This document shows positions 11,065 through 36,215 of a stretch of DNA of 64,000 bases, piece after piece. The notes beneath the pieces were generated by a model. It was not told where the DNA came from and did not search any database. It saw only the letters and a program-made list of their open reading frames with translations. Numbering within the stretch: the stretch's first letter is position 1; each line of letters starts with the position of its first letter. The stretch is from contig JAGFWP010000010.1 of NCBI GenBank assembly GCA_017639935.1, positions 11,213-75,212 on the forward strand, written 5' to 3'. The position numbers and the translations under genes are program-made. This DNA comes from Pelagibacteraceae bacterium. Lineage in GTDB: Bacteria; Pseudomonadota; Alphaproteobacteria; HIMB59; GCA-002718135.

Positions 11065-11070
11065 GGCGCA

Positions 11071-14206: not shown

Positions 14207-14219
14207 ACTAAATAATTTT

Positions 14220-14241: not shown

Positions 14242-14257
14242 AATCTCTTTAATTTCT

Positions 14258-17861: not shown

Positions 17862-17900
17862 TAATTTTTTACGGAAAAATAAAAATATATAAAATTGCTT

Positions 17901-19168: not shown

Positions 19169-19245
19169 ATAAGTTATTTTTGCTGATTATTAATTATTAT
19201 ACAATTTAATATAATTCTTAATATGACTATTTGTTAGGAGAAAAA

Positions 19246-20541: not shown

Positions 20542-20561
20542 TTTAGTTTAAGAATATTTTT

Positions 20562-20585
20562 AAGGCCGCTATTCACAGCGGCCTT
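20562..20585 (+). terminator. GC-rich hairpin after the SBP gene
   Basis: AAGGCCGCT-attcac-AGCGGCCTT. Confidence 0.6.
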
Positions 20586-20606
20586 AAAAGAAATTAATAT
20601 ACCAAA

Positions 20607-23095: not shown

Positions 23096-23100
23096 ATTTT

Positions 23101-24117
23101 ATGGCTAATTTAGAATTAATAGATCTTAGAAAATCATACGACAAACTTGAAGTTATTCACGGAATAAATTTACAAGTTACAGATGGTGAATTTTGTGTAC
23201 TAGTAGGTCCTTCAGGTTGCGGAAAATCAACTTTATTAAGGATGATAGCTGGTTTAGAGGCTATCAGTGAAGGCTCAATAATAATCGACGGAAAAAAAGT
23301 GAACAACATATCCGCTGCAAATAGAGGTTTGGCAATGGTTTTTCAATCATATGCTCTTTATCCACATATGAGTGTGCGTCAGAACCTAGCATTCGGGTTA
23401 GAAAATCTCAAAATGAAAAAGAATGAGATTGAGGAAAGAATTCAACAAGCAGCGAAACTTCTTAGAATGGAGGAATATTTAAAGAGAAGACCCGGTCAAT
23501 TATCAGGAGGGCAAAGACAAAGAGTTGCAATAGGCAGGGCCATAGTTCGAGAACCATCAATTTATTTATTTGATGAACCTTTATCAAATTTAGATGCTGA
23601 GTTAAGAGTAGCAACAAGAGTTGAATTAAAGGCACTACATGAGAGACTTGGCAACACAATGATTTATGTTACCCATGACCAGGTTGAAGCAATGACTATG
23701 GCAGATAAAATAGTTGTTTTAAACGAAGGTTTAATTGAACAGGTCGGGGCGCCATTGGAACTTTATAATAAACCTGCAAATGAGTTTGTTGCAGGATTTA
23801 TTGGATCTCCACGCATGAACTTTTTTGATATTGATATGCTTCCTGAATCAATTAAACAACTAGCACCCAATCATGCTTCTAGGCTCGGGGTAAGACCTGA
23901 ACACTTCGATCTTAAAGGAAAAATCATTCTTCCCTTAAAAGTTAACAATGTTGAACAACTAGGCTCGGACAGTTTTTTGTATGGAAAAACAAATAAAGGA
24001 CAAAAAATATCAATAAAACTAAATAATCAAACTCAAATTAAAGCGGAAGATGATATCATTGCTAGTTTTTCCCTGGAAAATTCCCATTGGTTTAATAATA
24101 GCGGAATTAGAATTTAA
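23101..24117 (+). CDS. ABC transporter ATP-binding protein (MalK/UgpC-like)
   Basis: [17 protein letters not shown] and LFDEPLS. Confidence 0.95.
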
Positions 24118-24158: not shown

Positions 24159-26573
24159 ATGAAATTATTTTCAAAAATTTATTCCCAAAAAATTGGCAAA
24201 GATGGCGCAATTTTAAGTTTAGATGATGATTGGATAATGAGAATCCGCATTCTTGAAAACTGGCTATTGCGAATTACTCTTGCGCCAAAAGAAGGATTAT
24301 CAATTAAAAATACGTGGATGGTTTGTCCAAAAAAAGCTCCTTTAAATTATGGAAGAGATAGAGAAAATTTAACTTGTTTTACTCTTCCAGATAATTTTCC
24401 TTGTAAGGAAAATGGCAATACGTATTTAAGAGGTGGAAACTTTAAGGTCTTGATTAAAAAAGATCCTTTAGTCATCAATATTAAAATTAAAGATAAACGT
24501 GGAAATTGGAATACCGCATTAAGCGATAGAGAGACAGGGTCTTGGTACTGGGATGCAAGAAGAAATAGCACATTCCATTATCAAGAAAGAAACATTAATG
24601 AAAAATTTTATGGCCTAGGAGAAAAAGCAGGAAAGTTAGACAGATCTTTTCGAAGATTTCAAATGTCTCAAAAAGATGCTTTGGGTTACAATGCTGAATT
24701 GAGTGATCCTCTATATAAGTCATTTCCATGGTTAATGATTAGATCAATTGACAATCAAAAAAATGATGTTGGTGTTTTATATGACACATTAGCACCTGCT
24801 GTTATTGATTGCGGCAGTGAGCATTCTAATTATCATGAAAAATATAGATATTTTGAAACTGAGACGAAAGGCATCGATTTATATGTTTTAACCAATAATA
24901 ATTGTTCTCTACCTGCAATGATTAACAAGCTTACCGGAATGCCTCCTTTACCACCTAAATGGAGCTTGGGTTTTCAATTCTCATCAATGGAGTTAGCAGA
25001 CCACCCTCTGGGAGAGAAATCTTTTTTTCATTTTTTTAATTTGTGCAATAAATACAAGATTCCCATAAGCGCTTTGCATTTTAGTTCAGGATATACTCTA
25101 AAAAAAGGTAAACGATATGTGTTTACTTGGGATAAGAGCAGATATCCTAATCCAAAAAAATTTTTGTTTAAATTAAAAGATTTGGGAATTCATTTAGTTG
25201 CAAATGTAAAACCAGCATTGTTAGATGATCATCCTTTGTATGAAGAAGCTAAATTAAAAAATATATTTATAAATGACAAACAAGACCAACCTTCAAAGAT
25301 TCAATTTTGGGGGGGGAAAGGCAGTCTAATTGATTTCACTAAATCGTCTGCTTTGAAATGGTGGAAAAAAAATGTTGAAGAACAATTATTAGCCACAGGA
25401 TTCGAGGGCATTTGGAATGATAATAACGAATATGATTTAAAGCAAGTTGAATCAGTTTCAAAAATTGAAAATCAGAATATTGACACCGAGAAAATTTCAT
25501 CAGCTCAAGCACTTATGATGGTAAAGAATTCTTATGAATCTGTAAAAAAATTTTATCCCAATAAAAGGATTTATTGTATATCCCGCTCAGGCTGTTTGGG
25601 CATTCAAAGATGGGCGGAGACTTGGACAGGAGATAATAAAACATCATGGCATACACTTAAATGGAATCTTGCTATGGGGTTAGGACTTTCATTGTCTGGA
25701 ATCGGACGATTTGGACATGATATCGGTGGTTTTACAGGAAAAAAAACAGATAAAGAGCTTCTGATCAGATGGGTACAAGCAATGTTGTTACATCCACGCT
25801 TTCATATGAATTCTTGGAAACCTTCTATACAAAATGATTTTGAAAACGATATTAATTTTGGAAGTCAAATAAACCTTCCCTGGATGCACAAAGAAATAAC
25901 TCCGCTTATAAGTAAACTATTAAATTTACGATATGAATTATTGCCTATTCTCTATTCCGCTCTTTGGGTATATCACCACAAGGGAGAACCTCCAATCCGT
26001 CCACTTTTTTTAGATTACCCTGAACAAAAAATTTATGATCAAGATGATGTTTATGCTCTTACCGATCGGATAATTGTAGCACCTGTTGTCGAGGAAGGTC
26101 ATCGCAAACGTAGCCTTTATTTGCCTTATTGCGACGAAGGTTGGTATGATTATTACAATATGAAATTTGTTGCACAACAAGGTTATGTTGAGCTCAAGGC
26201 TCCATTAGAAAAACTTCCGATTATAATAAAAGGAGGCACAATTATTCCTAGAGCCAAAACACCGTGGTTTCCATCACCACACTCAGCACCGATAAAAGAA
26301 ATAGTTATTTATCCTGCACTAAATAAAGGAAAAAATTTACAAAATAATTTACCAATAATATTCGATGATGGAGAGTCACTGGAATACCAAAAGGGAAATT
26401 TTAAAAGTCTTGTTCCCAATCTTCTTTGGGATAATAAAACAGCTCGGTTGAGTTTTAAATCTAGTGGTTCAGGGATTTTGCCCGAAAGAAGAATATCGAT
26501 AAATAAACCTCCTAAATGGAATGTAAAAATATTATCACTTAAAGGTTTTAATTTAATGAATGAAACTAAATAA
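24159..26573 (+). CDS. glycoside hydrolase family 31 (alpha-glucosidase-like)
   Basis: Nucleophile region GIWNDNNEYD (W-x-D-x-N-E), acid/base region WTGDNKTSW, plus VFTWDKSRYPNP and HDIGGF, all typical of GH31. Confidence 0.9.
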   Translation: MKLFSKIYSQKIGKDGAILSLDDDWIMRIRILENWLLRITLAPKEGLSIKNTWMVCPKKAPLNYGRDRENLTCFTLPDNFPCKENGNTYLRGGNFKVLIKKDPLVINIKIKDKRGNWNTALSDRETGSWYWDARRNSTFHYQERNINEKFYGLGEKAGKLDRSFRRFQMSQKDALGYNAELSDPLYKSFPWLMIRSIDNQKNDVGVLYDTLAPAVIDCGSEHSNYHEKYRYFETETKGIDLYVLTNNNCSLPAMINKLTGMPPLPPKWSLGFQFSSMELADHPLGEKSFFHFFNLCNKYKIPISALHFSSGYTLKKGKRYVFTWDKSRYPNPKKFLFKLKDLGIHLVANVKPALLDDHPLYEEAKLKNIFINDKQDQPSKIQFWGGKGSLIDFTKSSALKWWKKNVEEQLLATGFEGIWNDNNEYDLKQVESVSKIENQNIDTEKISSAQALMMVKNSYESVKKFYPNKRIYCISRSGCLGIQRWAETWTGDNKTSWHTLKWNLAMGLGLSLSGIGRFGHDIGGFTGKKTDKELLIRWVQAMLLHPRFHMNSWKPSIQNDFENDINFGSQINLPWMHKEITPLISKLLNLRYELLPILYSALWVYHHKGEPPIRPLFLDYPEQKIYDQDDVYALTDRIIVAPVVEEGHRKRSLYLPYCDEGWYDYYNMKFVAQQGYVELKAPLEKLPIIIKGGTIIPRAKTPWFPSPHSAPIKEIVIYPALNKGKNLQNNLPIIFDDGESLEYQKGNFKSLVPNLLWDNKTARLSFKSSGSGILPERRISINKPPKWNVKILSLKGFNLMNETK

Positions 26574-26618
26574 TATTACCTATTGTTCGTATGATAATTT
26601 CATTTAAAAAGATCTTTT

Positions 26619-27116
26619 ATGAGAATAAGTAAAACGATTATTTCTTATCTGAAGAAAGGTGGAGCAGATTTTTTTCTATCTGTCCCATGCAAACTTCTGG
26701 CCAATATGATAGCAATTTTAGAGAATGATAAAGATGTTTTTTATTCGGCAATCCCTAGAGAAGAAGAGGGTATGGGGATATGCGCAGGTGCGTATCTAGG
26801 AAACAAACTACCTTGTATCATGATGCAAAATTCTGGCATTGGTAATGCGGTTAACTCCATTGTTTCTCTTCTGCAATTGTATCAAATGCCTGTTGTTTTT
26901 TTAATCAGTTATCGCGGTACACCTGGTGAGTTAGTTGGCGCTCAAGCTGGTATGGCAAAAGTTACAAAAGAGATATTACAAACATTGCGCATACCAATGC
27001 TACATTGCAGTTCGGAGAAAGATTTAGATAAAATAAGTACTTTCACAGCATATGCAAAAGTTATTGAAAATCCAGTAGCCATTTTATGTGATTTTAATTT
27101 AATGAAAGAAGATTAA
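26619..27116 (+). CDS. TPP-dependent decarboxylase, alpha subunit (sulfopyruvate/phosphonopyruvate decarboxylase family, ComD-like)
   Basis: SVPCKLL...REEEGMGICAGAYLGNKLPCIMMQNSGIGNAVNSIVSL...PVVFLISYRG matches the ComD pattern. Confidence 0.8.
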   Translation: MRISKTIISYLKKGGADFFLSVPCKLLANMIAILENDKDVFYSAIPREEEGMGICAGAYLGNKLPCIMMQNSGIGNAVNSIVSLLQLYQMPVVFLISYRGTPGELVGAQAGMAKVTKEILQTLRIPMLHCSSEKDLDKISTFTAYAKVIENPVAILCDFNLMKED

Positions 27117-27688
27117 TGAACCGTTTTGAATTACTAAAGTCATTACAACCTATGTTACAAGATAATTTGATAGTATGTAACATCGGAATTCCCTCACAAG
27201 AGCTGTATCACATAAACGATCAACCAAATTATTTCTACATGCTTGGGAGTATGGGGTTAGCATCTTCTATTGGATTAGGTTTGTCCTTATCAGTTGATAA
27301 AAATGTTATAAGCATTGATGGGGATGGATCTGTCTTAATGAATATGAATACACTTGCAACTGTTGGAAATAGAGCGCCCAATAATTATACTTTGTTGATT
27401 ATTGACAATAGTTCGTATGGCTCCACGGGAGATCAAAAAACATTTACTGATGAAAAAACAAATTTAAAAGAAGTTGCAATCGGCGCCGGTTGTCGCAATG
27501 TAATTGAGTGCAACGGATCTGATACACCGTCAAATCTAGAAAAAGCACTAGGTGATAAAAATAATTCTTATGTTATTATTTCAAAAATCAATTCCGGCAA
27601 TGTTGCGGTAAAACCAATTCCAATAAATCCTATTACAATAAGAGATCGTTTTAGAAAGATTATTGGAAAAGTTGACTACCTCAAATAA
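27116..27688 (+). CDS. TPP-dependent decarboxylase, beta subunit (ComE-like)
   Basis: GSMGLASSIGLGLSL and the TPP-binding GDGSVLMNMNTLATVG...IDNSSYGSTGDQ. ATGA-type overlap with the alpha subunit. Confidence 0.8.
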   Translation: MNRFELLKSLQPMLQDNLIVCNIGIPSQELYHINDQPNYFYMLGSMGLASSIGLGLSLSVDKNVISIDGDGSVLMNMNTLATVGNRAPNNYTLLIIDNSSYGSTGDQKTFTDEKTNLKEVAIGAGCRNVIECNGSDTPSNLEKALGDKNNSYVIISKINSGNVAVKPIPINPITIRDRFRKIIGKVDYLK

Positions 27689-27705
27689 AGCCCTTCCATT
27701 TATCA

Positions 27706-28641
27706 ATGAAAAAAATTTTAATAACAGAGTTTATGGAACAAGACAGCATCAATTTGATCGCTAAAAAATTTGATGTCACTTATGATCCTAAGTTGTGTGA
27801 AAACGTTAAAGACTTAGTTTCTCAAATACATTTGTTTGATGCCATTATTGTTAGAAACAAAACCCAAGTTAATGATTCAGTTTTGCAAAAAGCGCGTAAT
27901 TTAAAGTTTGTAGGTAGATTAGGAGTTGGTTTAGATAATATTGATAATGATTTTTGTGAGAAAAATAATATTTTTGTTCAACCTGCAACAGGAATGAATG
28001 CCGACTCAGTTGCTGAATATGTTATCAACTGCTCCTTGTCCTTATTAAAAAATATACCCTTAATGCATCAAGGAACTATTACCGGGCGATGGCCGCGAAC
28101 CTCTATTGAATCAAGAGAACTGCGAGGAAAGACAATGAGTTTGCTTGGATTTGGCATCATTGGAAAAAAAGTCAGCAAGTTAGCACAGGCATTTGGTTCA
28201 AGAATTATTGCTTGTGATCCATTCGTTTTACCCTCTGCTGAAAGTAAATACAATATATCATTGGTAGAGCAGAAAGAACTTTTTGAAATAGCCGATATTA
28301 TATCAATTCATCTCCCGCTTAATAATGAAACTAAGGATTTATTAAATTTTAATTCTTTTTCATTGATGAAAAAAAAACCAATCATTATTAATTCATCAAG
28401 AGGTTCCATCGTGAATGAGAGAGATTTAATAAGGGCTTATCAGGATAATTTAATCAGTGGCTTTGCCTTGGATGTTTATGAATCTGAACCAGTCAAAGAG
28501 AATTTTTTTAAAAAAATTGACAATACCATGAATTGTATTCTAACCCCGCATATTGCTGGTGTGACTAATGAATCCAATGCTCGTGTCAGTCAATTTATTG
28601 CTGAAAAGTTAATTAGATTTTTTGAGAAAATTACAGACTAA
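27706..28641 (+). CDS. D-isomer-specific 2-hydroxyacid dehydrogenase (PGDH/GyaR-like)
   Basis: NAD motif GFGIIGKKV, and catalytic region SSRGSIVNE...D and TPHIAG. Confidence 0.88.
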   Translation: MKKILITEFMEQDSINLIAKKFDVTYDPKLCENVKDLVSQIHLFDAIIVRNKTQVNDSVLQKARNLKFVGRLGVGLDNIDNDFCEKNNIFVQPATGMNADSVAEYVINCSLSLLKNIPLMHQGTITGRWPRTSIESRELRGKTMSLLGFGIIGKKVSKLAQAFGSRIIACDPFVLPSAESKYNISLVEQKELFEIADIISIHLPLNNETKDLLNFNSFSLMKKKPIIINSSRGSIVNERDLIRAYQDNLISGFALDVYESEPVKENFFKKIDNTMNCILTPHIAGVTNESNARVSQFIAEKLIRFFEKITD

Positions 28642-29713
28642 ATTCACTCATCAAAACAACTCTGTTTTCTTTGATCGAAAGCTCAGCTGCCTCTCCAATT
28701 GCCACAGCCACTAATCCATCATTTAGAGAAACCTCCGGTAATAAGTTATTTAGAATAGCGTTTATAAAAGCTTTATGTTCATAAAATGTTGAGCCATGAT
28801 GATGGCCTGCCTCGAGGATAGTCTTATCTACTGTTATTTTTTCTTGCTTAACTTCATTATTTTTTCTAAAGCCAATTCTTATATGTGACGAAGAGATGCC
28901 TGATTGATGTGACGGTACGCCTGTTTCTATTTTACCTTTTGCGCCAACAGCACACAGTTCTTCTTGGTGTTTTGAATTTTCAGCAAACATGCATAAATCT
29001 AAAAGTGCTCTGACTCCGTTTTTAAAATCAATAATCACGTAGGCATTATCAATAATGTCAGGAGTTTTTCCGTCATATTTTTCATTCAAGTGATTTACAT
29101 CTTGGCTGCCGCTTGCATATACTTTTAAAGGCTCGCTTTGCACTATCAGTCTCATTAAATCAAAAAAATGACAGCATTTTTCAACTAAAGTTCCCCCTGT
29201 ATTAATTGCAAAGCGGTTCCAGTCATCAACTTTGTCTAAAAAGGGAAATCGATGCTCTCGAATGGATAGCATGTGTAATTTACCAATAGTTTTATTATGT
29301 ATTTCTTTAATCATTTTTTGGATGGGCGGCATGTATCTATACTCCATTGCCGTCCAAATTATTCCAGGATAATTTTTTGTCAAATTTGCAAATTCTTTGC
29401 AATCTTGCAGGGTTGTACATAACGGTTTTTCAATCAATAGGTGGGCATTAGACTTAATTATATCTTTTAAAACTTCAAAATGAGTATTATTGGGAGTTGC
29501 TACAATATAAGCATCAGCTAGATTCTCGTTAATTAGATCATGGTGATTATTAAAAGACGGAATATCCTTTTTAAACAAGGCTAAGCTTTCATTAAGAGAT
29601 TTGTTGTTAGTGTCAGATAGGGCGACAACTTCAGCTTCTTCAATAATTTCAATATTACGAATATGCTCCTGGCCCATAGTGCCAGTTCCAACAATGGCAT
29701 ATTTTATTGTCAT
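28631..29713 (-). CDS. Gfo/Idh/MocA-family oxidoreductase
   Basis: N-terminal Rossmann YAIVGTGTMGQEHIRNI and EKP motif (LLIEKPL). Confidence 0.88.
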   Translation of the reverse strand: MTIKYAIVGTGTMGQEHIRNIEIIEEAEVVALSDTNNKSLNESLALFKKDIPSFNNHHDLINENLADAYIVATPNNTHFEVLKDIIKSNAHLLIEKPLCTTLQDCKEFANLTKNYPGIIWTAMEYRYMPPIQKMIKEIHNKTIGKLHMLSIREHRFPFLDKVDDWNRFAINTGGTLVEKCCHFFDLMRLIVQSEPLKVYASGSQDVNHLNEKYDGKTPDIIDNAYVIIDFKNGVRALLDLCMFAENSKHQEELCAVGAKGKIETGVPSHQSGISSSHIRIGFRKNNEVKQEKITVDKTILEAGHHHGSTFYEHKAFINAILNNLLPEVSLNDGLVAVAIGEAAELSIKENRVVLMSEFSL

Positions 29714-29780
29714 AATTTGTTATTCATAAAAATCCTAAAATCACAAAAATAATATTTATATAATTTAATCATAAAAAAAA

Positions 29781-29794
29781 TTGATATAGATCAA
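29781..29794. promoter_or_regulatory. perfect Crp/Fnr-type palindrome TTGATATAGATCAA
   Basis: Exact TTGAT-N4-ATCAA, centred ~74 bp upstream of the minus-strand start codon at 29713. Confidence 0.35.
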
Positions 29795-29950
29795 ATTATT
29801 TAACAATTATTAAAATGACATTTTATGTTTTTTTATTACATAAGCTTCTTTTATTAAACATCCACTTATTAAAATATTTATCTTTTTATCAGAAGAACAT
29901 GGCATTTTTTTATTTATCCCAGAAATATGAATATTCTTTTCATAATAGTA

Positions 29951-29973
29951 TTGACAAGTAAAACGTTTTATTA
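29951..29973 (+). promoter_or_regulatory. promoter/LacI-type operator, copy 3 of 4 (ABC operon C), followed by an extra half-site
   Basis: Identical 23-mer with palindrome at 29959-29970. CGTTTTATTAAT is repeated at 29980-29991, just before a TATAAT at 29992-29997. Confidence 0.75.
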
Positions 29974-30048
29974 ATACATCGTTTTATTAATTATAATCGT
30001 AAAAAAATTATAATAATTTTTGATATAATTTTCTAGTTAGGAGAAACA

Positions 30049-31275
30049 ATGAGAATATTAAAATATTTAATTATTTTAAGTACAATATTTGCTTCATCAA
30101 TTTCTTCGGCAGGTACATTGGTTGTAAACTCTAACCAATCCGGTGAATCCTCGGAAGCGGCATTTAATGCTTACGTTGCGGCATTTGAAGCGGCACACCC
30201 AGATATTGATGTGCAAGTAAATTTAACTGAACATGAAGCCTATAAAACAGCTATCAGAAATTTCTTGGTTGCGGAAGCGCCAGATGTAGCTATCTGGTTT
30301 GCTGGCAATAGGATGAAATTCTTTGTTGATCAAGGCTTGTTCATGGACGTCAGTGATGTCTGGGCTGATGCAGATCTCAATAACATAATGTCATCATCAA
30401 AAGCTTCTTTGAGCGTTGAAGGCAAACAGTATGGTGTTCCATGGGGTTATTACCAATGGGGTGTTTATTACCGGAAAGACATCTTTGATAATCTGGGACT
30501 TAATGTTCCTAAGGATTGGGCTGAGTTTAAATGGGTGTGCGCAATGTTAAAGAAAAATGGGATAACACCAATTACTATTGGAACAAAATATCTTTGGACC
30601 GCTGCTGGGTGGTTTGATTATTTGAACTTAAGAATCAATGGATATGCATTCCATATGGGCCTAACAGCAGGTAAAATAAGTTATGAAGATAGTAGACTTG
30701 ACGCTGTGTTTGATGCTTGGAGAGAGTTAATTGAACCAGGGTATTTCCTAGAAGACCATGCGACTTACTCTTGGCAAGAAGCGCAAGCTCCACAAATTAA
30801 TGGAGAAGCTGCTATGTATTTGATTGGTAACTTTTATGTTCCGACTTTAGAAAGCGCAGGTGTTGTTGATAAAATGGATTTTTTCCAATTTCCACCTATC
30901 AAGCCAGGCGTAGGAATGTATGAAGATGCACCAACTGATACAATGCATATTCCAAGTGGCGCTAAGAATGTAGTGGATGCAAAAAAATTCCTAGCATTCA
31001 TGTCAGATCCTTCCGCAGCAACTAATTGGGCAAAAATGGGCGGCATGCTAAGCCCTAACTCTCTTGCAGATGCTCCAACTGATCGTTTTCAACAAATGGG
31101 GTTTGCGATGTTGAATGCAGCGGATGGTTTGGCCCAATTCTATGATCGCGACGCTAATCCTGATATGGCGAAAGCTGGCATGGAAGGTTTCCAGGAATTT
31201 ATGGTTAAGCCTGACCGTGAGGCTAAAGTTAGAGCAAGAATGGAAAAGGAACGTAGGCGTATCTACGGAGAATAA
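30049..31275 (+). CDS. ABC transporter substrate-binding protein, family 1
   Basis: Signal peptide (..SSISSAGT) and SD GTTAGGAGAAA, at the head of a permease pair. Confidence 0.9.
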   Translation: MRILKYLIILSTIFASSISSAGTLVVNSNQSGESSEAAFNAYVAAFEAAHPDIDVQVNLTEHEAYKTAIRNFLVAEAPDVAIWFAGNRMKFFVDQGLFMDVSDVWADADLNNIMSSSKASLSVEGKQYGVPWGYYQWGVYYRKDIFDNLGLNVPKDWAEFKWVCAMLKKNGITPITIGTKYLWTAAGWFDYLNLRINGYAFHMGLTAGKISYEDSRLDAVFDAWRELIEPGYFLEDHATYSWQEAQAPQINGEAAMYLIGNFYVPTLESAGVVDKMDFFQFPPIKPGVGMYEDAPTDTMHIPSGAKNVVDAKKFLAFMSDPSAATNWAKMGGMLSPNSLADAPTDRFQQMGFAMLNAADGLAQFYDRDANPDMAKAGMEGFQEFMVKPDREAKVRARMEKERRRIYGE

Positions 31276-31289
31276 GAATTGATATTTTT

Positions 31290-31319
31290 AAAGGCGGAGC
31301 TATGTTTCCGCCTTTTTTT
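31290..31319 (+). terminator. hairpin + T-run after the SBP gene
   Basis: AAAGGCGGA-gctatgtt-TCCGCCTTT followed by tttt. Confidence 0.7.
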
Positions 31320-31339
31320 GTTTATAGTAAATTTTCATA

Positions 31340-32254
31340 ATGACATTCTGGCAAAGAAATCAATTAAGAATCGCTCCATTTTATTTCCTGGCTCCAGGAT
31401 TAATGTTATTTTTAATTTATGTAATTTATCCAATAATAGATTCCATTTGGGTTAGTTTCCACGAATGGAATGGAATGTCAAAAGATCTTTTAAAAGCAGA
31501 CGGCACACCTAAAAATTGGAAATGGGTTGGATTTGGAAATTACATTGATTTATTTCAAGATGAAGATTTTTATGTAGCTTTTTTTAATAATGTTAGATGG
31601 CTAATACTTAGTCTTTTAGTTATTCCCTTAGGTTTAGCGTTAGCACTTTTTTTAAATCAAGATTTCAAAGGAATGAGATACATCAAGTCCCTTTTTTATT
31701 TTCCATTTGTGATCAACTTGGTCGTTGTTGGACTTATATTTGCCTGGTTTTATAATCCAAAATATGGTCTTCTTGGACAAGCCTTCAGCGGTCTTGGACT
31801 TAAACCTATTCCTATTCTGTCCGATGAGCTCTATGCAACATATGGCATTATATTCGCCTCTTTTTGGCCTTCCATAGCTTACACTATGATCATTTATATC
31901 ACGGGCTTGACGGGAATAAATCGTGAAATGATTGAAGCGGGAAGAATTGATGGTGCGTCAGGATTTAAAATGCTTTGGCACATAATACTACCACAACTGA
32001 AACCCGCAACTTTAATAGCAGTCGTAGTAACCATTGTCGGTGCGCTTAGAAGTTTTGATTTAATAGCTATTATGACGGCAGGAGGACCATGGGGCAGCAC
32101 CAAAGTTCTTGCTTATAAAATGTACGAGGAGGCATTGTTTAATTTTCGAATGGGATATGGCGCTGCAGTTGCAACAATATTGTTTTTACTGATGGATATC
32201 TACATTGCATATTTTTTATATAATTTATTCAAGAATGAAAGAGGCGCGAAATAA
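31340..32254 (+). CDS. ABC sugar-type permease (MalF/UgpA-like)
   Basis: EAA loop EAGRIDGASGFKMLWHIILP. Confidence 0.9.
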   Translation: MTFWQRNQLRIAPFYFLAPGLMLFLIYVIYPIIDSIWVSFHEWNGMSKDLLKADGTPKNWKWVGFGNYIDLFQDEDFYVAFFNNVRWLILSLLVIPLGLALALFLNQDFKGMRYIKSLFYFPFVINLVVVGLIFAWFYNPKYGLLGQAFSGLGLKPIPILSDELYATYGIIFASFWPSIAYTMIIYITGLTGINREMIEAGRIDGASGFKMLWHIILPQLKPATLIAVVVTIVGALRSFDLIAIMTAGGPWGSTKVLAYKMYEEALFNFRMGYGAAVATILFLLMDIYIAYFLYNLFKNERGAK

Positions 32255-33105
32255 TGTTTCCAACACCCATTCAAAAAGCGTCTCTTAAAATTAACATCAC
32301 GTATAAAGTTCTACTTATTATCACTCTTGTGCTTTGGTTACTGCCTTTGATTGCTGTGATGATGACTTCAGTTCGCACCAGCGGAGATATTTTGAAAGGC
32401 AATTATTGGACTGTTCCAACGGAGTTTGCTTTAATTGAAAATTATGGAACCGTTTTTAAACTGGGCAATTTAGCGCGCTACTTTTTTAACAGTCTAGTCA
32501 TTACCCTTCCAACAGTCCTGGGCACGATTGTTTTAAGCTCCATGACCGGATACACCTTAGCTGTACACCGGTTTAAATTAAATTTTTTGGTTTTCGCAAT
32601 GTTCATTGCAGGAAACTTCATACCGTTTCAGATTTTGATGATTCCAGTGAGACATCTCACAATCAATTTAGGAATGTATGACACATACTGGGGTTTGATT
32701 GTTTTTCATATTGCCTTTCAAACAGGTTTTTGCACCTTCTTTTTAAGGAACTTTATTAAAGAATTGCCATTTGAGTTAATAGAATCAGCAAGGGCAGACG
32801 GCGCGACTGAATGGACCATTTATCGGAAAATCATAATACCGTTAACTTTGCCCGCCATAGCAGCCTTAGCAGTGCTTGAGTTTACTTTTATTTGGAATGA
32901 TTATTTTTGGTGCCTGATATTATCACAGAGTGAAGGAACCAAGCCCATAACGCTGGGGTTGCAAACTTTACAAGGTCAATGGATGTCCTCGTGGAACATC
33001 GTTTCCGCGGGATCTGTCGTAGCAGCTCTTCCGCCCGTCATTATGTTCTTTACAATGCAAAAACATTTTATTCAAGGATTGACTTTTGGAGCGGTTAAAG
33101 GATAA
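32254..33105 (+). CDS. ABC sugar-type permease (MalG/UgpE-like)
   Basis: EAA loop ESARADGATEWTIYRKIIIP. Confidence 0.9.
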   Translation: MFPTPIQKASLKINITYKVLLIITLVLWLLPLIAVMMTSVRTSGDILKGNYWTVPTEFALIENYGTVFKLGNLARYFFNSLVITLPTVLGTIVLSSMTGYTLAVHRFKLNFLVFAMFIAGNFIPFQILMIPVRHLTINLGMYDTYWGLIVFHIAFQTGFCTFFLRNFIKELPFELIESARADGATEWTIYRKIIIPLTLPAIAALAVLEFTFIWNDYFWCLILSQSEGTKPITLGLQTLQGQWMSSWNIVSAGSVVAALPPVIMFFTMQKHFIQGLTFGAVKG

Positions 33106-33173
33106 TTTGTTTTAAGAATCACTTGTATTGAAATACAAAAGTATTAGAAGAAATTTATCTTAGAAGACGTTAA

Positions 33174-34193
33174 ATGACAGAATTAAATCAAACCGCATTA
33201 AAAATAGTTTCAAATGGCAAAGGCATTTTAGCGGCTGACGAAAGCACAGGGACGATGACAAAGCGGCTTGATTCAATCAACGTTGCATCCAGTCCTGAAA
33301 ACAGGTTAATCTTTAGGGAAGCGTTATTTTCATCAAATGGAATGGAGAATTTTATCGGTGGAGTGATTTTGTTTGATGAGACAATAAAACAAAGTACAAA
33401 ATCAGGTAACAGCATACCTGAGTTGATTAATCAGAGTGGAGCTGTTATCGGAATAAAGGTCGATGCTGGAGCAAAAATTCTTGCCGGCTCCCCAGAAGAA
33501 AAAGTTACTGAAGGATTGGACGGGCTCAGAGAAAGATTGACTGAATATTATAAATTGGGAGCAAGATTTACAAAATGGAGGGCCGTATATAACATTACTG
33601 AAAAACATCCCTCAGAGTTAGCAATTAAATCAAACGCCCATGCCTTGGCTAGATATGCAGCCTTGGTTCAAGAAGCAAACATGGTTCCTATTGTTGAACC
33701 AGAAGTCTTAATGGATGGCGATCATGACATTAATAAGTGTTATGAAGTAACAGCAAAGGTTTTAAATGAATGCTACAAAGAACTAAAATTGCATAATGTG
33801 GATTTAAAAGGAACAATATTGAAACCCAATATGATTTTGCCTGGAAATGGATCAAAAAATGAAAGTAGAACTGGAGAAATTGCTAAAATGACGCTTAAGT
33901 GCTTAAAAGAAAATGTGCCAGGCGAGGTTCCTGGAATAGCTTTTTTATCAGGCGGCCAAACAGAAATTGAAGCAACACAAAACTTGAATGAAATTAATAA
34001 AATTAATGATACAAATTTTGCACTGACCTTTTCTTACGGCAGAGCCCTTCAGCAAAGTGCGTTACAATATTGGGGAAAGAATCAAGAAGATCTTGTCAAT
34101 GTACAAGAAATATTCAGTCATAGGGCTAAAATGAATAGCTTATCTACATTAGCCAGATGGACAGAAAATCTGGATAAAATTAATATTCAATAA
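33174..34193 (+). CDS. class I fructose-bisphosphate aldolase family protein
   Basis: ILAADESTGTMTKRL and the Schiff-base lysine context GTILKPNMILPG, with full-length collinearity to the glycolytic class I aldolase family. Confidence 0.9.
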   Translation: MTELNQTALKIVSNGKGILAADESTGTMTKRLDSINVASSPENRLIFREALFSSNGMENFIGGVILFDETIKQSTKSGNSIPELINQSGAVIGIKVDAGAKILAGSPEEKVTEGLDGLRERLTEYYKLGARFTKWRAVYNITEKHPSELAIKSNAHALARYAALVQEANMVPIVEPEVLMDGDHDINKCYEVTAKVLNECYKELKLHNVDLKGTILKPNMILPGNGSKNESRTGEIAKMTLKCLKENVPGEVPGIAFLSGGQTEIEATQNLNEINKINDTNFALTFSYGRALQQSALQYWGKNQEDLVNVQEIFSHRAKMNSLSTLARWTENLDKINIQ

Positions 34194-34199
34194 TTTTTC

Positions 34200-35246
34200 A
34201 TGACATCAATTCGTTGGGGCATTATTGGTCCAGGAAATATCGCGCATAGGTTCGCTGATGGATTAGAAGAAGCAAGATCAGGTGAATTGGTTGCTATTGC
34301 CAGCACCAATGAAGGGAGAAGAAAATCATTTGGCGATAAATACAATATTGATTCAACACTTCGTTTCTCCTCTTATGATGAATTAGTTGAATCATCGGAC
34401 ATTGACGCTATTTATATCTCCACCCCCCACACACTTCATGCGGAATGGACGATAAAGGCTGCGGGCAGAGGAAAACACGTATTATGTGAAAAGCCAGGAG
34501 CGGTTAATCTTGAAGAAGGTAAGCAAGTCATACAAGCTGTACAGGAAGCAGGTGTTTTTTATATGGAGGGCTTTATGTATCGGTGCCACCCGCAAATAAA
34601 AACATTGCTTAAACTTATTAAAGAAAAAAAGATTGGAGAGATCAAATCAATAAAATCCTCTTTTGGATTTGATACGGGTAAAACAATTCCCAAGTCTCGT
34701 TTATTTAATAAAGAACTAGCAGGCGGGGCAATACTCGATGTAGGAGTTTATCCCATATCCTTTTCCCGCTTGGTAGCGGGCGCCGCTAGTGGAAAAAAAT
34801 TCCTTAATCCAGTCAAGTTATCGGGATCTGCCACAATTGGAGAGACGGGCGTGGATGAAGTTGCACACGCTAAATTTGAATTTGAAAATGGTATTGTAGC
34901 TGAAGCATCAACGGCCATACGAGAAGAGATGACTGATGATGCAATAATTACAGGATCAAAAGGAACCATTGAAATGAGTGAACCTTGGACGCCTGGAAAA
35001 GATGGGGAAGGATATCATTCAACAATAAAGATTAATATAAACGATAACACCGAGATTGTTGATATGAAAGGCCAAGAACATTTATTTTATTTTGAGGCTG
35101 AGTTGGCGAGTCTATCGATAAAAGATAATAAATTAGAAGTCCCACATCCGGGTATGACTTGGGAGGACACACTTGGCAATCTCAAAACCCTTGATGATTG
35201 GAGGGAACAGATTGGTTATTCAATTCAACGTGATTCAACTTCATAA
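34200..35246 (+). CDS. Gfo/Idh/MocA-family oxidoreductase
   Basis: IRWGIIGPGNIAHRF Rossmann and CEKP motif. Confidence 0.88.
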   Translation: MTSIRWGIIGPGNIAHRFADGLEEARSGELVAIASTNEGRRKSFGDKYNIDSTLRFSSYDELVESSDIDAIYISTPHTLHAEWTIKAAGRGKHVLCEKPGAVNLEEGKQVIQAVQEAGVFYMEGFMYRCHPQIKTLLKLIKEKKIGEIKSIKSSFGFDTGKTIPKSRLFNKELAGGAILDVGVYPISFSRLVAGAASGKKFLNPVKLSGSATIGETGVDEVAHAKFEFENGIVAEASTAIREEMTDDAIITGSKGTIEMSEPWTPGKDGEGYHSTIKININDNTEIVDMKGQEHLFYFEAELASLSIKDNKLEVPHPGMTWEDTLGNLKTLDDWREQIGYSIQRDSTS

Positions 35247-35252
35247 ACTTTT

Positions 35253-36215
35253 ATGCAATACGATACAATTCCAGGATTAGAAAAAAAAATATCTAAGTTG
35301 ATTATGGGCAATGATAATCAGACAGATTACGATAGCGCCGCTGAATTATGGGATCACTGGATTAGCGTTGGAGGAAATGCTTTTGATAATGCATTTATGT
35401 ATGGTGAGGGTTCAATGGAGAAGCTTCTTGGGCGATGGCATACGGCAAGAAATAACAGAGATGACTTAATAATAATAGCCAAGGGCGCACACACACCAAA
35501 CTGTGATCCAAACAGTTTGTCTGAACAACTAACGATTTCATTGGATCGGTTGCAGATTGATCAGGCTGACATTTACATAATGCATAGGGACAATATCGAA
35601 GTTCCCGTTAGTGAATTTATGGATGTTTTGAATAAAGAAAAAGAAAAAGGACGTATAAAAATTTTTGGAGGATCCAACTGGAGTTTGCAAAGATTCATTG
35701 AAGCGAATGATTGGGCAAAAAAAAATGAAAAAGAAGAGATGGCTGTATTAAATAATAATTTAGCCCTTTCAAAGATGATCAATCCTTTATGGCAAGGATG
35801 CGTTTCCTCTAATGATGCTGCAATTCTTGAACATCTACGCACCTCCCAAAAAGCTCATCTTTCCTGGTCCAGTCAAGGAAGGGGATATTTTTTACCCGAA
35901 AAAATTCGACAATCAATTGAAGATAAAATTACTAAAGATGAATCCTCTTGGAGACAACCAGGGGAAAAAAGCAGCGGTCCGATCAGTTGTTTTAACAGCC
36001 CTGATAACAGAATAAGACGTCAAAGAGCGGAGGATTTAGCAAAAGATCTTAATTTTACAACACAAAATATAGCCACTGCTTGGACGCTAAACCAGCCTTT
36101 TCCATCTTTTTCTTTAATTGGGCCTAGAAAAATAAACGAAATAGATTCAACACTTCCATGTCTAAATGTTTCTTTGACTAGTGATAAGATGCAATATTTA
36201 AATCTTTTGGATTAA
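35253..36215 (+). CDS. aldo/keto reductase family protein
   Basis: NAFDNAFMYGEGSMEKLLGRW, with the layout and length typical of AKRs. Confidence 0.8.
   Translation: MQYDTIPGLEKKISKLIMGNDNQTDYDSAAELWDHWISVGGNAFDNAFMYGEGSMEKLLGRWHTARNNRDDLIIIAKGAHTPNCDPNSLSEQLTISLDRLQIDQADIYIMHRDNIEVPVSEFMDVLNKEKEKGRIKIFGGSNWSLQRFIEANDWAKKNEKEEMAVLNNNLALSKMINPLWQGCVSSNDAAILEHLRTSQKAHLSWSSQGRGYFLPEKIRQSIEDKITKDESSWRQPGEKSSGPISCFNSPDNRIRRQRAEDLAKDLNFTTQNIATAWTLNQPFPSFSLIGPRKINEIDSTLPCLNVSLTSDKMQYLNLLD

What the first reader, a model, noticed from the sequence alone, without database searches (positions are those of the whole stretch)
24159..36215. GH31 glycosidase operon ending in a split ComDE-type TPP decarboxylase plus 2-hydroxyacid dehydrogenase, suggesting catabolism of a glycoside with a C3-acid or C3-sulfonate aglycone
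Downstream of transporter B come a GH31 enzyme, then ComD- and ComE-like subunits (the sulfopyruvate/phosphonopyruvate decarboxylase family) and a D-2-hydroxyacid dehydrogenase. The neighbouring operon adds a class I aldolase, a Gfo/Idh/MocA oxidoreductase and an AKR, and a second Gfo/Idh/MocA gene is divergent. In known biology ComDE acts on sulfopyruvate, both in coenzyme M synthesis and in bacterial sulfolactate degradation via a sulfolactate dehydrogenase. GH31 includes sulfoquinovosidases, class I aldolases cleave sulfofructose-1-phosphate, and an AKR acts in the sulfoquinovose monooxygenase route. However, the recognised sulfoquinovose isomerase, kinase, dehydratase and monooxygenase genes, and Xsc, are absent here. 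As I recall the sulfoquinovosidase signature (R-x-x-W plus Tyr in DIGGY), this GH31 does not carry it: it has GKRYVFTW and DIGGF, like ordinary alpha-glucosidases. An alternative reading is an alpha-glucoside of a C3 hydroxy-acid, such as cyanobacterial glucosylglycerate. That would be hydrolysed, the glycerate oxidised by the 2-hydroxyacid dehydrogenase, and the 2-oxo acid decarboxylated by the TPP enzyme. Either reading would be an undescribed gene combination.
Basis: partly seen in the sequence, partly recalled or inferred. Interest (0 to 1): 0.72.

Follow-up and report, generated by a model that had tools for sequence, protein, structure and literature searches.

The report
Sulfoquinovose–sulfolactate gene module in HIMB59
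Four adjacent genes in this abundant open-ocean bacterium (HIMB59/AEGEAN-169 clade) look like a sulfoquinovosidase plus the enzymes that turn sulfolactate into sulfoacetaldehyde, so the clade probably eats the plant and algal sulfosugar sulfoquinovose by a gene combination I found in no searchable paper; the neighbouring GH31 glycosidase looks like an ordinary alpha-glucosidase placed next to them by rearrangement.

Summary
The key gene was misread. The "divergent Gfo/Idh/MocA" gene (28631-29713, minus strand) belongs to family GH188, the NAD+-dependent sulfoquinovosidases (SqgA). It is 48-49% identical to crystallised SqgA enzymes and keeps every catalytic and sulfonate-binding residue.

The "2-hydroxyacid dehydrogenase" is SlcC-like, i.e. 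an (S)-sulfolactate dehydrogenase. ComDE falls on the sulfopyruvate side of its family, and no PEP mutase is present.

In 60 of 80 related species genomes these four genes sit with an SftI-like sulfoquinovose isomerase, a YihV-like sulfofructose kinase, a mutarotase and an EamA exporter. This is a sulfoglycolysis cluster extended to sulfoacetaldehyde, a combination I found in no searchable paper.

The window's lineage lacks the isomerase, kinase and mutarotase. Its three tested genes are still under purifying selection.

The GH31 fails the sulfoquinovosidase motif and carries a glucosidase-II-like motif. It belongs to a mobile ABC-transporter/alpha-glucosidase cassette. The aldolase/Gfo/AKR operon is a separate cassette.

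The sulfonate reading is supported. The "aglycone" and glucosylglycerate readings are not.

The parts
   Evidence: PDB 8qc2/8qc8 (FlSqgA) E 2.6e-112, 8qc3/5/6 (ArSqgA) E 2.7e-109, 8zn9 E 4.4e-94, all full length. 48-49% identity to ArSqgA/FlSqgA and 43% to the 8zn9 chain, which I take to be RdSqgA. K96, Y125, R155, L159, K161, E178, H182, H305 match ArSqgA K107, Y136, R166, L170, K172, E189, H193, H321. Homologues at 45-51% identity lie in sulfo-SMO clusters on plasmids.
27706..28641 (+). slcC-like D-2-hydroxyacid dehydrogenase, probable (S)-sulfolactate dehydrogenase
   Evidence: Pfam 2-Hacid_dh and 2-Hacid_dh_C. PGDH-like but below the SerA cutoff, 244 against 454 bits. Best hits in annotated plasmid records are 43.8% (S. 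mexicanum) and 39.5% (Paracoccus aestuarii), both genes inside suyAB-slcC-comC-suyZ clusters. SlcC belongs to the SERA clade of D-2HADH enzymes (PMC6303947).
27116..27688 (+). comE: sulfopyruvate decarboxylase beta subunit
   Evidence: TIGR03846 221.5 bits at a cutoff of 221.5. 56-57% identity to Roseobacter comE in hpsKLM-hpsNOP-comDE-slcD-like clusters, against 44% to a Priestia split decarboxylase next to a PEP mutase that scores only 172 bits.
26619..27116 (+). comD: sulfopyruvate decarboxylase alpha subunit
   Evidence: TIGR03845 156 bits against a cutoff of 147.95. Its stop overlaps the comE start.
24159..26573 (+). GH31 alpha-glycosidase, alpha-glucosidase-like and not an SQase type. 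Last gene of the transporter B cassette, 45 nt upstream of comD
   Evidence: Pfam GH31 domains. Best matches are MalA, FjDex31A and glucosidase II. Positions equivalent to YihQ Q288/R301/W304/Y508 are S/R319/F322/F, while the catalytic Asps D421 and D492 are kept. The GKRY(V)FTWD motif is shared with glucosidase II.
19231..24117 (+). CUT1-type ABC transporter B (SBP, two permeases, UgpC/MalK-like ATPase). Forms a cassette with the GH31
   Evidence: Pfam and NCBIfam. The orthologous cassette (85-90% identity) followed by a GH31 lies downstream of the SftI-like gene in 9 related species and in L088. A homologous cassette occurs in Jiella and Aquibium.
29714..30048 (.). Divergent intergenic region between sqgA and transporter C
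   Evidence: ORF coordinates. Promoter-like hits here are no more frequent than in shuffled sequence.
30049..36215 (+). Adjacent, separate cassette: ABC transporter C (30049-33105), class I FBP aldolase (33174-34193), Gfo/Idh/MocA (34200-35246), AKR (35253-36215). Not shown to belong to the sulfonate module
   Evidence: Pfam and NCBIfam. Transporter C, Gfo2, AKR and LacI occur together without ComDE or SqgA in many marine contigs. The aldolase is present in only a few. The Gfo2-AKR pair is conserved even at 40% identity in non-marine metagenomes.
36277..37311 (-). LacI-family regulator, travels with cassette C
   Evidence: Pfam; co-occurrence.

Best explanation
The block comD-comE-slcC-like-(convergent) sqgA at 26619-29713 is the conserved core of a sulfoquinovose (SQ) catabolic cluster of the HIMB59/AEGEAN-169 clade.

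Proposed mechanism:
- SqgA uses bound NAD+ to cleave SQ glycosides such as sulfoquinovosyl glycerol and release SQ.
- In most relatives a mutarotase, an SftI-like isomerase and a YihV-like kinase convert SQ to sulfofructose-1-phosphate.
- An aldolase not encoded in the cluster gives DHAP and (S)-sulfolactaldehyde, which is oxidised to (S)-sulfolactate by an unidentified enzyme.
- The SlcC-like dehydrogenase oxidises (S)-sulfolactate to sulfopyruvate.
- ComDE decarboxylates sulfopyruvate to sulfoacetaldehyde.
- The fate of sulfoacetaldehyde is not encoded in the window. It could go to Xsc elsewhere in the genome, or be reduced and exported.

Shown by sequence: the family membership of SqgA, ComDE and the SlcC-like enzyme, and their conserved linkage with the isomerase and kinase in relatives.

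Inferred: the substrates, the aldolase step, the sulfolactaldehyde oxidation step, and the end product.

In this window's lineage the isomerase, kinase, mutarotase and exporter genes are missing from the locus. An alpha-glucoside-type cassette (ABC transporter B plus GH31) has been joined upstream of comD. The transporter C/aldolase/Gfo/AKR/LacI cassette downstream is an independent sugar module of a flexible island.
For: Organism: HIMB59 / MarineAlpha5 / 'Pelagibacteraceae' SAGs and MAGs.

SqgA: E 1e-112 to crystallised SQases, with all catalytic and sulfonate-binding residues conserved. HIMB59-clade proteins are already in the GH188 homologue list of the JACS paper. Homologues at 45-51% identity sit in sulfo-SMO clusters.

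ComDE: passes the sulfopyruvate equivalog cutoffs, whereas a split decarboxylase in a PEP-mutase context fails them. It is 56-57% identical to Roseobacter comE inside DHPS/sulfolactate clusters, where the next gene is also a 2-hydroxy-acid oxidising enzyme. No PEP mutase was found in the window, in 86 genome loci or in 80 metagenome loci.

SlcC-like: its best hits in annotated plasmid records are the dehydrogenase genes next to comC inside suyAB clusters. SlcC is a SERA-clade D-2HADH. By my own CIP reasoning, the D-configured analogue of D-3-phosphoglycerate is (S)-sulfolactate, the enantiomer that sulfoglycolysis produces.

Linkage: 60 of 80 species representatives carry ComDE, a PfkB kinase, the SlcC-like gene and SqgA together, and 57 of these also carry the SftI-like gene. 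The isomerase's only NCBIfam hit is SftI (285.6 bits). The kinase is 35% identical to E. coli YihV over its full length.

Selection within the window-type architecture: dN/dS is 0.08 for ComE, 0.14 for the SlcC-like gene and 0.14 for SqgA.
Against: - The window has no isomerase, kinase, mutarotase or exporter, so a complete route cannot be read from this locus.
- No sulfolactaldehyde dehydrogenase, YihT/SqiA-type aldolase or Xsc was found in the window or in the relatives' flanks.
- ComE is exactly at the equivalog cutoff, not above it.
- The SftI-like gene scores far below its equivalog cutoff (285.6 against 700).
- 11 of 80 relatives keep Opp-ABC, EamA, epimerase and ComDE without SlcC or SqgA. 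ComDE may therefore have a role that does not depend on SQ.
- No enzyme was assayed.
Confidence: 0.68

Rival explanations
1. In this lineage the module works on free C3 sulfonates taken from seawater (sulfolactate, or DHPS/cysteate after conversion elsewhere) rather than on SQ. SqgA and the sugar cassettes are neighbours in a mosaic island and are not steps of one pathway.
For: The upper sulfoglycolysis genes are absent from the window. Roseobacter comDE serves DHPS/sulfolactate catabolism. 11 of 80 relatives have ComDE without SqgA or SlcC. The island is visibly built of cassettes.
Against: SqgA, SlcC-like and ComDE stay together in 60 of 80 species and in the window lineage, and the three genes tested are under purifying selection. 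No TRAP or TTT sulfonate transporter of the known kinds is present. SqgA has no use without SQ glycosides.
Confidence: 0.17
2. One reading: one operon degrades a glycoside taken up by transporter B. The GH31 releases a C3 sulfonate or C3 acid aglycone, which the dehydrogenase and ComDE then process.
For: Tight spacing between GH31 and comD and no terminator-like site. The GH31 cassette lies next to the SQ cluster in two different arrangements. In Jiella a GH31 of this type shares an operon with a canonical SQase.
Against: GH31-ComD adjacency is absent from all 80 related species. The GH31 has ordinary alpha-glucosidase motifs. The same cassette sits next to uronate genes in Aquibium and in L088. 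No glycoside with a sulfolactate aglycone is known to me (own knowledge).
Confidence: 0.08
3. Glucosylglycerate route: GH31 hydrolysis, glycerate oxidised to hydroxypyruvate by the dehydrogenase, then TPP-dependent decarboxylation to glycolaldehyde.
For: D-2HADH enzymes include glycerate dehydrogenases and hydroxypyruvate reductases (weaker hits).
Against: ComDE and the dehydrogenase match sulfonate enzymes best. A dedicated sulfoquinovosidase is the conserved partner. No glycolaldehyde-handling enzyme is nearby.
Confidence: 0.03
4. The decarboxylase is a phosphonopyruvate decarboxylase serving phosphonate biosynthesis or catabolism.
For: Same protein family. TIGR03297 gives secondary hits of 102 and 125 bits. 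The closest solved structure is a 'putative phosphonopyruvate decarboxylase beta subunit', 9iz3.
Against: Both scores are far below the Ppd cutoff of 312.5. A split homologue next to a PEP mutase is only 44% identical and fails the sulfopyruvate models. No PEP mutase was found in the window or in 166 related loci. The flanking genes are sulfonate enzymes.
Confidence: 0.03

Closest known systems
GH188 NAD+-dependent sulfoquinovosidases (SqgA; Kaur et al., JACS 2023, PMC10755693)
   Same: Full-length homology. Identical catalytic residues (Lys, Tyr, Glu, His, His) and sulfonate-binding residues (Arg, Leu backbone, Lys). Located in an SQ catabolic neighbourhood in 60 of 80 relatives.
   Different: 41.6-49% identical to characterised enzymes. 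That is below the 54% cutoff used to count sqgA in Tara data (PMC12780224), so this clade would be missed there. Here it is coupled to ComDE/SlcC, whereas the described clusters are sulfo-EMP, ED, SFT, SMO or SDO. In the window it sits near a GH31, although the paper describes GH188 clusters as lacking GH31 SQases.
Sulfolactate/DHPS degradation via sulfopyruvate decarboxylase in Roseobacters (hpsKLM-hpsNOP-comDE-slcD type; activity known to me from Denger et al. 2009, not read here)
   Same: ComDE at 56-57% identity, immediately followed by an enzyme that oxidises a 2-hydroxy acid. The product should be sulfoacetaldehyde.
   Different: The dehydrogenase is an NAD-dependent SlcC-like D-2HADH, not the FMN-dependent SlcD-like enzyme. 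There are no hps genes and no TRAP transporter. The source of sulfolactate would be sulfoglycolysis rather than DHPS.
Sulfo-EMP / sulfo-EMP2 sulfoglycolysis (E. coli yih cluster; Arthrobacter)
   Same: In relatives: an SQase, a mutarotase, an isomerase and a YihV-like kinase (35% identity).
   Different: The isomerase is SftI-like, the type used in the transaldolase pathway, not YihS-like. No YihT/SqiA aldolase and no YihU reductase or SLA dehydrogenase is in the cluster. The pathway continues past sulfolactate. The window itself lacks the isomerase and the kinase.
Tandem sulfoglycolysis plus biomineralisation in one organism (sulfofucose ED pathway plus SlcC/ComC-SuyAB in Paracoccus wurundjeri, PMC12421959)
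   Same: A sulfosugar cleavage pathway coupled to further processing of sulfolactate by an SlcC-type dehydrogenase. That paper calls such coexistence unusual.
   Different: Sulfopyruvate is decarboxylated by ComDE rather than reduced to (R)-sulfolactate and cleaved by SuyAB. The genes lie in one contiguous cluster. The host is a streamlined oligotrophic marine clade.
GH31 alpha-glucosidases (glucosidase II, MalA, FjDex31A) versus GH31_13 sulfoquinovosidases (YihQ)
   Same: The GH31 fold, both catalytic Asps, and the GKRY-FTWD and DIGGF motifs of alpha-glucosidases.
   Different: Lacks the Q/E-RWY sulfonate motif of YihQ. Only 23% identical to YihQ. Its specificity is unknown.

Membership tests
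GH188 sulfoquinovosidase (SqgA): gene 28631-29713(-) | Full-length sequence homology to experimentally characterised SqgA enzymes | tested here: met
   E 2.6e-112 and 2.7e-109 to FlSqgA and ArSqgA; E 4.4e-94 to 8zn9. 48-49% and 43% identity.
GH188 sulfoquinovosidase (SqgA): gene 28631-29713(-) | Catalytic residues Lys107, Tyr136, Glu189, His193, His321 (ArSqgA numbering) | tested here: met
   K96, Y125, E178, H182, H305 align to them. The motifs are conserved in 57-63 of 63 clade orthologues.
GH188 sulfoquinovosidase (SqgA): gene 28631-29713(-) | Sulfonate-binding triad Arg166 / Leu170 backbone / Lys172 | tested here: met
   R155, L159 and K161 lie in the motif EHRFPFLDKV.
GH188 sulfoquinovosidase (SqgA): gene 28631-29713(-) | NAD+-dependent hydrolysis of SQ glycosides | not testable with these tools
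   Needs an enzyme assay.
Sulfopyruvate decarboxylase ComDE | Two adjacent subunits carrying the TPP_enzyme_N and TPP_enzyme_C domains | tested here: met
   The comD stop overlaps the comE start.
Sulfopyruvate decarboxylase ComDE | Scores at or above the curated equivalog cutoffs (TIGR03845/TIGR03846) and below the phosphonopyruvate decarboxylase model | tested here: met
   Alpha subunit 156 against 147.95. Beta subunit 221.5 against 221.5, which is borderline. Ppd model 102 and 125 against 312.5. A control from a PEP-mutase context scores 128 and 172 and fails.
Sulfopyruvate decarboxylase ComDE | Sulfonate genomic context and no PEP mutase | tested here: met
   Flanked by the SlcC-like gene and SqgA. 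No PEP mutase in the window or in 166 related loci.
Sulfopyruvate decarboxylase ComDE | A downstream enzyme for sulfoacetaldehyde (Xsc, a reductase or a dehydrogenase) | tested here: inconclusive
   None was identified in the window. An unrelated AKR follows comE in 4 relatives. The rest of the genome could not be searched.
SlcC-type (S)-sulfolactate dehydrogenase | D-2HADH of or near the SERA clade that is not a true SerA | tested here: met
   Pfam domains present. PGDH model 244 bits against a cutoff of 454. Short, type-III-like.
SlcC-type (S)-sulfolactate dehydrogenase | Orthology to slcC genes of suyAB-slcC-comC clusters | tested here: inconclusive
   These are the best hits in annotated plasmid records, but identity is only 39.5-43.8%.
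GH31_13 sulfoquinovosidase (YihQ type): the GH31 gene | Q/E-R-W-Y sulfonate recognition motif (YihQ Q288, R301, W304, Y508) | tested here: not met
   The equivalent residues are S, R319, F322 and F of DIGGF. The Arg also occurs in glucosidase II.
GH31 retaining alpha-glycosidase: the GH31 gene | Three GH31 domains plus the catalytic nucleophile and acid/base Asp | tested here: met
   Pfam. D421 and D492 are invariant in the alignment with YihQ.
Sulfo-EMP-type sulfoglycolysis (whole pathway) | SQ isomerase and sulfofructose kinase in the locus | tested here: not met
   Absent from the 64-kb window. Present in 57-60 of 60 SqgA-positive relatives.
Sulfo-EMP-type sulfoglycolysis (whole pathway) | Dedicated SFP aldolase (YihT or SqiA type) | tested here: not met
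   None found. The only aldolase is a PF00274 class I FBP aldolase inside a separate cassette.
Sulfo-SMO pathway (AKR = SmoB) | SmoC monooxygenase plus a SmoB-like AKR | tested here: not met
   No LLM monooxygenase is present. The window AKR is 24% identical to Ruegeria SmoB over 131 residues.

The most novel reading that the evidence does not exclude
The HIMB59/AEGEAN-169 clade, one of the abundant streamlined bacteria of oligotrophic surface oceans, runs a route I found in no searchable paper: SQ glycoside to SQ to sulfofructose-1-phosphate to (S)-sulfolactate to sulfopyruvate to sulfoacetaldehyde. In this route housekeeping glycolytic enzymes (aldolase, possibly GAPDH/PGK) handle the sulfonate analogues of their phosphorylated substrates, and only paralogues of PGDH (SlcC-like) and ComDE are dedicated. 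The window's lineage, which keeps sqgA-slcC-comDE under purifying selection without the isomerase and kinase, would use a different upper route that has not been recognised.
Probability: 0.2. Interest if true: 0.85.

Novelty: new variant of a known kind. Interest (0 to 1): 0.66.

Why it matters

A 2025 study concluded that Alteromonadaceae and Roseobacteraceae are the principal marine consumers. It counted sqgA with a 54% identity cutoff to the Roseobacter enzyme (PMC12780224). The HIMB59-clade SqgA proteins are 41.6-49% identical to that enzyme and would have been excluded.

The comE of this cluster is very common in ocean metagenomes. The exact protein is listed in 196 blocks of the collection, and thousands of close relatives come from Tara and JGI marine data.

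If the cluster works as read, three things follow:
- An abundant oligotrophic clade is added to the marine SQ sink.
- There is a new way of joining sulfoglycolysis to C3-sulfonate breakdown, through ComDE instead of SuyAB.
- There is a concrete substrate to try for hard-to-grow AEGEAN-169 isolates, whose usable carbon sources are poorly known (PMC10308909).

Tried and rejected
1. The GH31 as a cryptic SQase or alpha-glucuronidase that binds an anionic C6 group through R319. Rejected as evidence, because glucosidase II has the same GKRY-FTWD motif. The association with UxuA/UxuB in Aquibium and L088 and with a canonical SQase in Jiella remains unexplained.
2. The AKR as SmoB, the 6-oxo-glucose reductase. 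Rejected: 24-25% identity over a partial alignment.
3. SBP_B as a SmoF-like SQGro-binding protein. Only weak hits to generic sugar-binding proteins.
4. A solved structure for the SftI-like isomerase. None found.
5. Phosphonate reading. No PEP mutase anywhere. The HIMB59 phosphate-island paper mentions no such genes.
6. Promoter and terminator scan. Counts are no different from shuffled sequence, so it is uninformative for operon structure.
7. The island as an integrase-mobilised element. The tRNA-Met repeats bound a different 9-kb element on the other side of the tRNA.
8. Literature links between HIMB59/AEGEAN-169/SAR11 and sulfoquinovose or comDE. None found in the searchable library.
9. Aldolase/Gfo2/AKR as an alternative upper pathway, for example polyol-type isomerisation of SQ followed by aldol cleavage. 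Considered, but there is no kinase, and the cassette occurs independently of the sulfonate genes. It is kept only as part of the low-probability novel case.

Full report
OBSERVATION. The window has 24-40% G+C and carries many ABC sugar transporters.
- GH31: 24159-26573.
- ComD: 26619-27116.
- ComE: 27116-27688.
- A D-2-hydroxyacid dehydrogenase: 27706-28641.
- A Gfo/Idh/MocA gene on the minus strand: 28631-29713.
- ABC transporter C: 30049-33105.
- A class I FBP aldolase: 33174-34193.
- A second Gfo/Idh/MocA gene: 34200-35246.
- An AKR: 35253-36215.
- LacI: 36277-37311 (minus strand).

Upstream lie ABC transporter A, a GpsA-like dehydrogenase and ABC transporter B (19231-24117). The same island is found at 98-100% protein identity on six independent metagenome contigs. 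Gaps between ATPase_B, GH31, comD, comE and the dehydrogenase are 41, 45, -1 and 17 nt, and no terminator-like hairpin lies between them. The promoter/terminator scan is no better than shuffled sequence, however, so co-transcription is plausible and not shown.

ORGANISM AND SETTING. A scan of one genome per species with ComE returned 80 loci at 75-80% identity. All come from uncultured marine alphaproteobacterial SAGs and MAGs, including records named HIMB59, MarineAlpha5 and 'Pelagibacteraceae'. The window therefore comes from the HIMB59/AEGEAN-169 clade. The right part of the window (42-64 kb) holds ligA and the dcw cell-wall cluster at 24-30% G+C. The carbohydrate island at 11.3-37.3 kb has 32-38% G+C.

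THE KEY CORRECTION. The 'divergent Gfo/Idh/MocA' gene matches the crystal structures 8QC2/8QC8 and 8QC3/5/6 over its full length, with E 2.6e-112 and 2.7e-109. These are FlSqgA and ArSqgA, the founding members of family GH188, the NAD+-dependent sulfoquinovosidases (PMC10755693). Identity is 48-49% to these two and 43% to 8zn9, which I take to be RdSqgA.

Counting along the alignment, ArSqgA Lys107, Tyr136, Glu189, His193 and His321 (catalytic residues and hydroxyl ligands) correspond to window K96, Y125, E178, H182 and H305. The sulfonate triad Arg166 / Leu170 / Lys172 corresponds to R155, L159 and K161. The motifs are kept in 57-63 of 63 orthologues in the clade.

Plasmid-borne homologues at 45-51% identity sit in textbook sulfo-SMO clusters in Ruegeria and Sphingobium. 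The supplementary list of the JACS paper already contains a MarineAlpha5_Bin5 protein, from the genome of my locus L020, and a 360-residue 'Pelagibacterales' protein. Family membership of this clade's proteins is thus on record, but its gene cluster is not discussed there.

THE DECARBOXYLASE. ComD and ComE reach the curated equivalog cutoffs for sulfopyruvate decarboxylase: 156 against 147.95, and 221.5 against 221.5, the latter only just. As calibration I scored two comparators:
- Roseobacter ComE from a DHPS cluster scores 241.5.
- A Priestia split homologue that lies beside a PEP-mutase-family gene scores 172.1, and its alpha subunit 128. Both fail.

The window ComE is 56-57% identical to the Roseobacter proteins and 44% to the Priestia one. 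In Sulfitobacter and Leisingera, comDE lies in LacI / TRAP / hisD-like (hpsN) / SDR / ADH / comD / comE / alpha-hydroxy-acid-oxidase clusters. In other words, the gene right after comE oxidises a 2-hydroxy acid there too. No PEP-mutase homologue exists in the window, the 86 genome loci or the 80 metagenome loci.

THE DEHYDROGENASE. It is PGDH-like but well below the SerA cutoff, 244 against 454 bits. The closest structures are short type-III PGDHs. Its two best hits among annotated plasmid records are 43.8% (Sinorhizobium mexicanum) and 39.5% (Paracoccus aestuarii). Both are the dehydrogenase gene inside suyA-suyB-(TTT transporter)-slcC-comC-suyZ sulfolactate clusters.

[quoted passage not shown] By CIP priority rules (my own reasoning), the spatial analogue of D-3-phosphoglycerate is (S)-sulfolactate. 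That is the enantiomer expected from D-configured sulfoquinovose.

COMPARATIVE CONTEXT. Among the 80 species representatives:
- 60 carry ComD-ComE-PfkB kinase-SlcC-like-(convergent) SqgA. In 57 of these a 455-457-residue isomerase follows SqgA.
- 11 lack SqgA although at least 3.5 kb downstream of ComE was read.
- 9 are cut by contig ends.

The isomerase's only NCBIfam hit is the sulfoquinovose isomerase SftI, at 285.6 bits and E 6e-85. That is far below the equivalog cutoff of 700. The kinase is 35% identical to E. coli sulfofructose kinase YihV over its full length, E 7e-57.

Upstream of comD, nearly all relatives have an Opp-type ABC transporter, sometimes two more Gfo/Idh/MocA genes, an EamA-family transporter and an aldose 1-epimerase.

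The clade's standard cluster therefore reads as a sulfoglycolysis cluster (SQase, mutarotase, isomerase, kinase) physically fused to a sulfolactate-to-sulfoacetaldehyde module. I found no paper describing SQ clusters with comDE:
- The two recent marine SQ papers, one of them a review, do not mention sulfopyruvate.
- The few papers holding both words concern other routes.
- A 2025 paper calls coexistence of sulfoglycolysis and biomineralisation in one bacterium unusual.

WHAT IS DIFFERENT IN THIS WINDOW. The window has no homologue of the isomerase, kinase, epimerase or EamA gene. Only comD-comE-slcC-like-sqgA remain, and comD is preceded by transporter B and the GH31. Comparison with a second contig of the same architecture (L097) gives dN/dS of 0.08 for ComE, 0.14 for the SlcC-like gene and 0.14 for SqgA. 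These three genes are maintained by selection and are not decaying. Whether the missing upper steps are encoded elsewhere in this genome could not be tested.

THE GH31. Aligned with E. coli YihQ and a canonical SQase from Jiella, the window enzyme keeps both catalytic aspartates (D421, D492). At YihQ Q288/R301/W304/Y508 it has S/R319/F322/F. The conserved Arg is not evidence for an anionic substrate, because glucosidase II has the same 'GKRY-FTWD' motif and 'D(V/I)GGF'. The best matches are MalA, FjDex31A and glucosidase II.

Orthologues of transporter B (85-90% identity) followed by a GH31 (47% identity in L088) occur in nine relatives, downstream of and divergent from the SftI-like gene. Other relatives carry other CUT1 transporters at that position. 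Homologous transporter-plus-GH31 cassettes occur in two Rhizobiales:
- In Aquibium, and also in L088, the cassette is next to uxuA and a mannitol-dehydrogenase-family gene.
- In Jiella it is next to an epimerase, an SDR and a canonical SQase.

I read the GH31 as an alpha-glucosidase-type cassette in a variable sugar island. It is joined to comD only in this lineage, and its exact substrate is unknown.

THE NEIGHBOURING OPERON. A metagenome scan with the second Gfo/Idh/MocA protein shows that transporter C, Gfo2, AKR and LacI form a unit in many marine contigs without ComDE or SqgA. The aldolase is present in only a few of them. One contig (L100) joins transporter A directly to transporter C. 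The Gfo2-AKR pair persists at about 40% identity in non-marine metagenomes. The AKR is not SmoB-like.

MECHANISM AND CONFIDENCE. Shown by sequence:
- GH188 membership with an intact active site.
- A sulfopyruvate-type ComDE.
- An SlcC-like dehydrogenase.
- Conserved linkage of these with an SftI-like isomerase and a YihV-like kinase in 57-60 species.

Inferred:
- The substrates.
- Aldol cleavage by an enzyme outside the cluster.
- Oxidation of sulfolactaldehyde to sulfolactate. No candidate is in the cluster. Glycolytic GAPDH/PGK acting on the analogue is my speculation.
- The fate of sulfoacetaldehyde. Possibilities are Xsc elsewhere, or reduction and export. An unrelated AKR follows comE in four relatives.

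Unexplained: 11 species keep Opp-ABC, EamA, epimerase and ComDE without SlcC or SqgA.

I put 0.68 on the module being a sulfoquinovose/sulfolactate module as described. I put about 0.17 on it serving free C3 sulfonates only in this lineage. The 'aglycone', glucosylglycerate and phosphonate readings each get less than 0.1.

NOVELTY AND INTEREST. The parts are members of known families. The combination (GH188, sulfoglycolysis genes, SlcC-like, ComDE) and its host clade appear to be undescribed. HIMB59-clade SqgA proteins are 41.6-49.0% identical to RdSqgA, below the 54% cutoff used to quantify sqgA in Tara Oceans. That study named Roseobacteraceae and Alteromonadaceae as the main consumers. The AEGEAN-169 genome paper does not mention sulfonates at all. 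I rate this a new variant of a known kind, with interest 0.66.

Noticed in passing
window 2215-2298 and 11189-11297; integrase 10084-11031(-): A 61-nt direct repeat. Positions 2238-2298 equal 11212-11272, which is 9 nt upstream plus the first 52 nt of the only tRNA (tRNA-Met, 11221-11297). A tyrosine integrase lies just inside, next to the intact tRNA. This looks like a ~9-kb integrated element (2299-11220) carrying an SDR, an alpha/beta hydrolase and a metallophosphoesterase. The sugar island lies on the other side of the tRNA, outside these repeats.
   Followed up: partly
window 34200-36215; loci L104-L150, L158-L170: The Gfo/Idh/MocA-AKR gene pair is conserved as neighbours from marine HIMB59-like contigs (60-92% identity) down to non-marine metagenomes (about 40% identity). 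In the marine contigs it travels with transporter C and LacI. Its function is unknown, and the class I aldolase is only an occasional insertion.
   Followed up: partly
L089 (Jiella sp. MQZ9-1) 5331-16049: One operon holds a CUT1 ABC transporter, a GH31 of the window's type (785 aa, 40% identity), a 301-aa aldose epimerase, an SDR and a canonical GH31_13 sulfoquinovosidase with FGKRLFW and DIGGY. The window-type GH31 thus also accompanies a bona fide SQase in a Rhizobiales genome.
   Followed up: partly
L094 (Aquibium oceanicum) 1261-11358; L088 3054-14841: The same transporter-plus-GH31 cassette lies next to uxuA (mannonate dehydratase) and a mannitol-dehydrogenase-family gene in two unrelated genomes. 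This hints at a link to uronate catabolism that I could not interpret.
   Followed up: no
L012, L017, L018, L025, L060, L081-L086; L177, L178: Eleven of 80 related species keep the Opp-type ABC transporter, EamA, aldose epimerase, ComD and ComE but have no SlcC-like, SqgA, kinase or isomerase gene nearby. In four of them an AKR (336 aa, unrelated to the window's AKR) follows comE. In the others an arginase-family gene follows. What feeds ComDE there is unexplained.
   Followed up: partly
window 12893-17861 and 21659-23095: Transporter A appears to have three membrane-component genes (14258-15136, 15136-15960, about 15960-16808). Permease B2 is 478 aa with a ~290-residue N-terminal extension before its BPD_transp_1 domain.
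   Followed up: no
window 17895-18947: A divergent GpsA-like NAD-dependent glycerol-3-phosphate dehydrogenase family gene (139 bits against a cutoff of 257) ends the transporter A operon. In contig L104 it directly precedes transporter C. Its substrate is unknown; DHPS is a sulfonate analogue of glycerol-3-phosphate.
   Followed up: no
window 11300-37300 versus 42500-64000: The carbohydrate island has 32-38% G+C, against 24-30% for the adjacent core genes (ligA and the dcw cluster mraW-ftsI-murE-murF-mraY-murD-ftsW-murG-murC). This is consistent with a flexible, exchanged island.
   Followed up: partly
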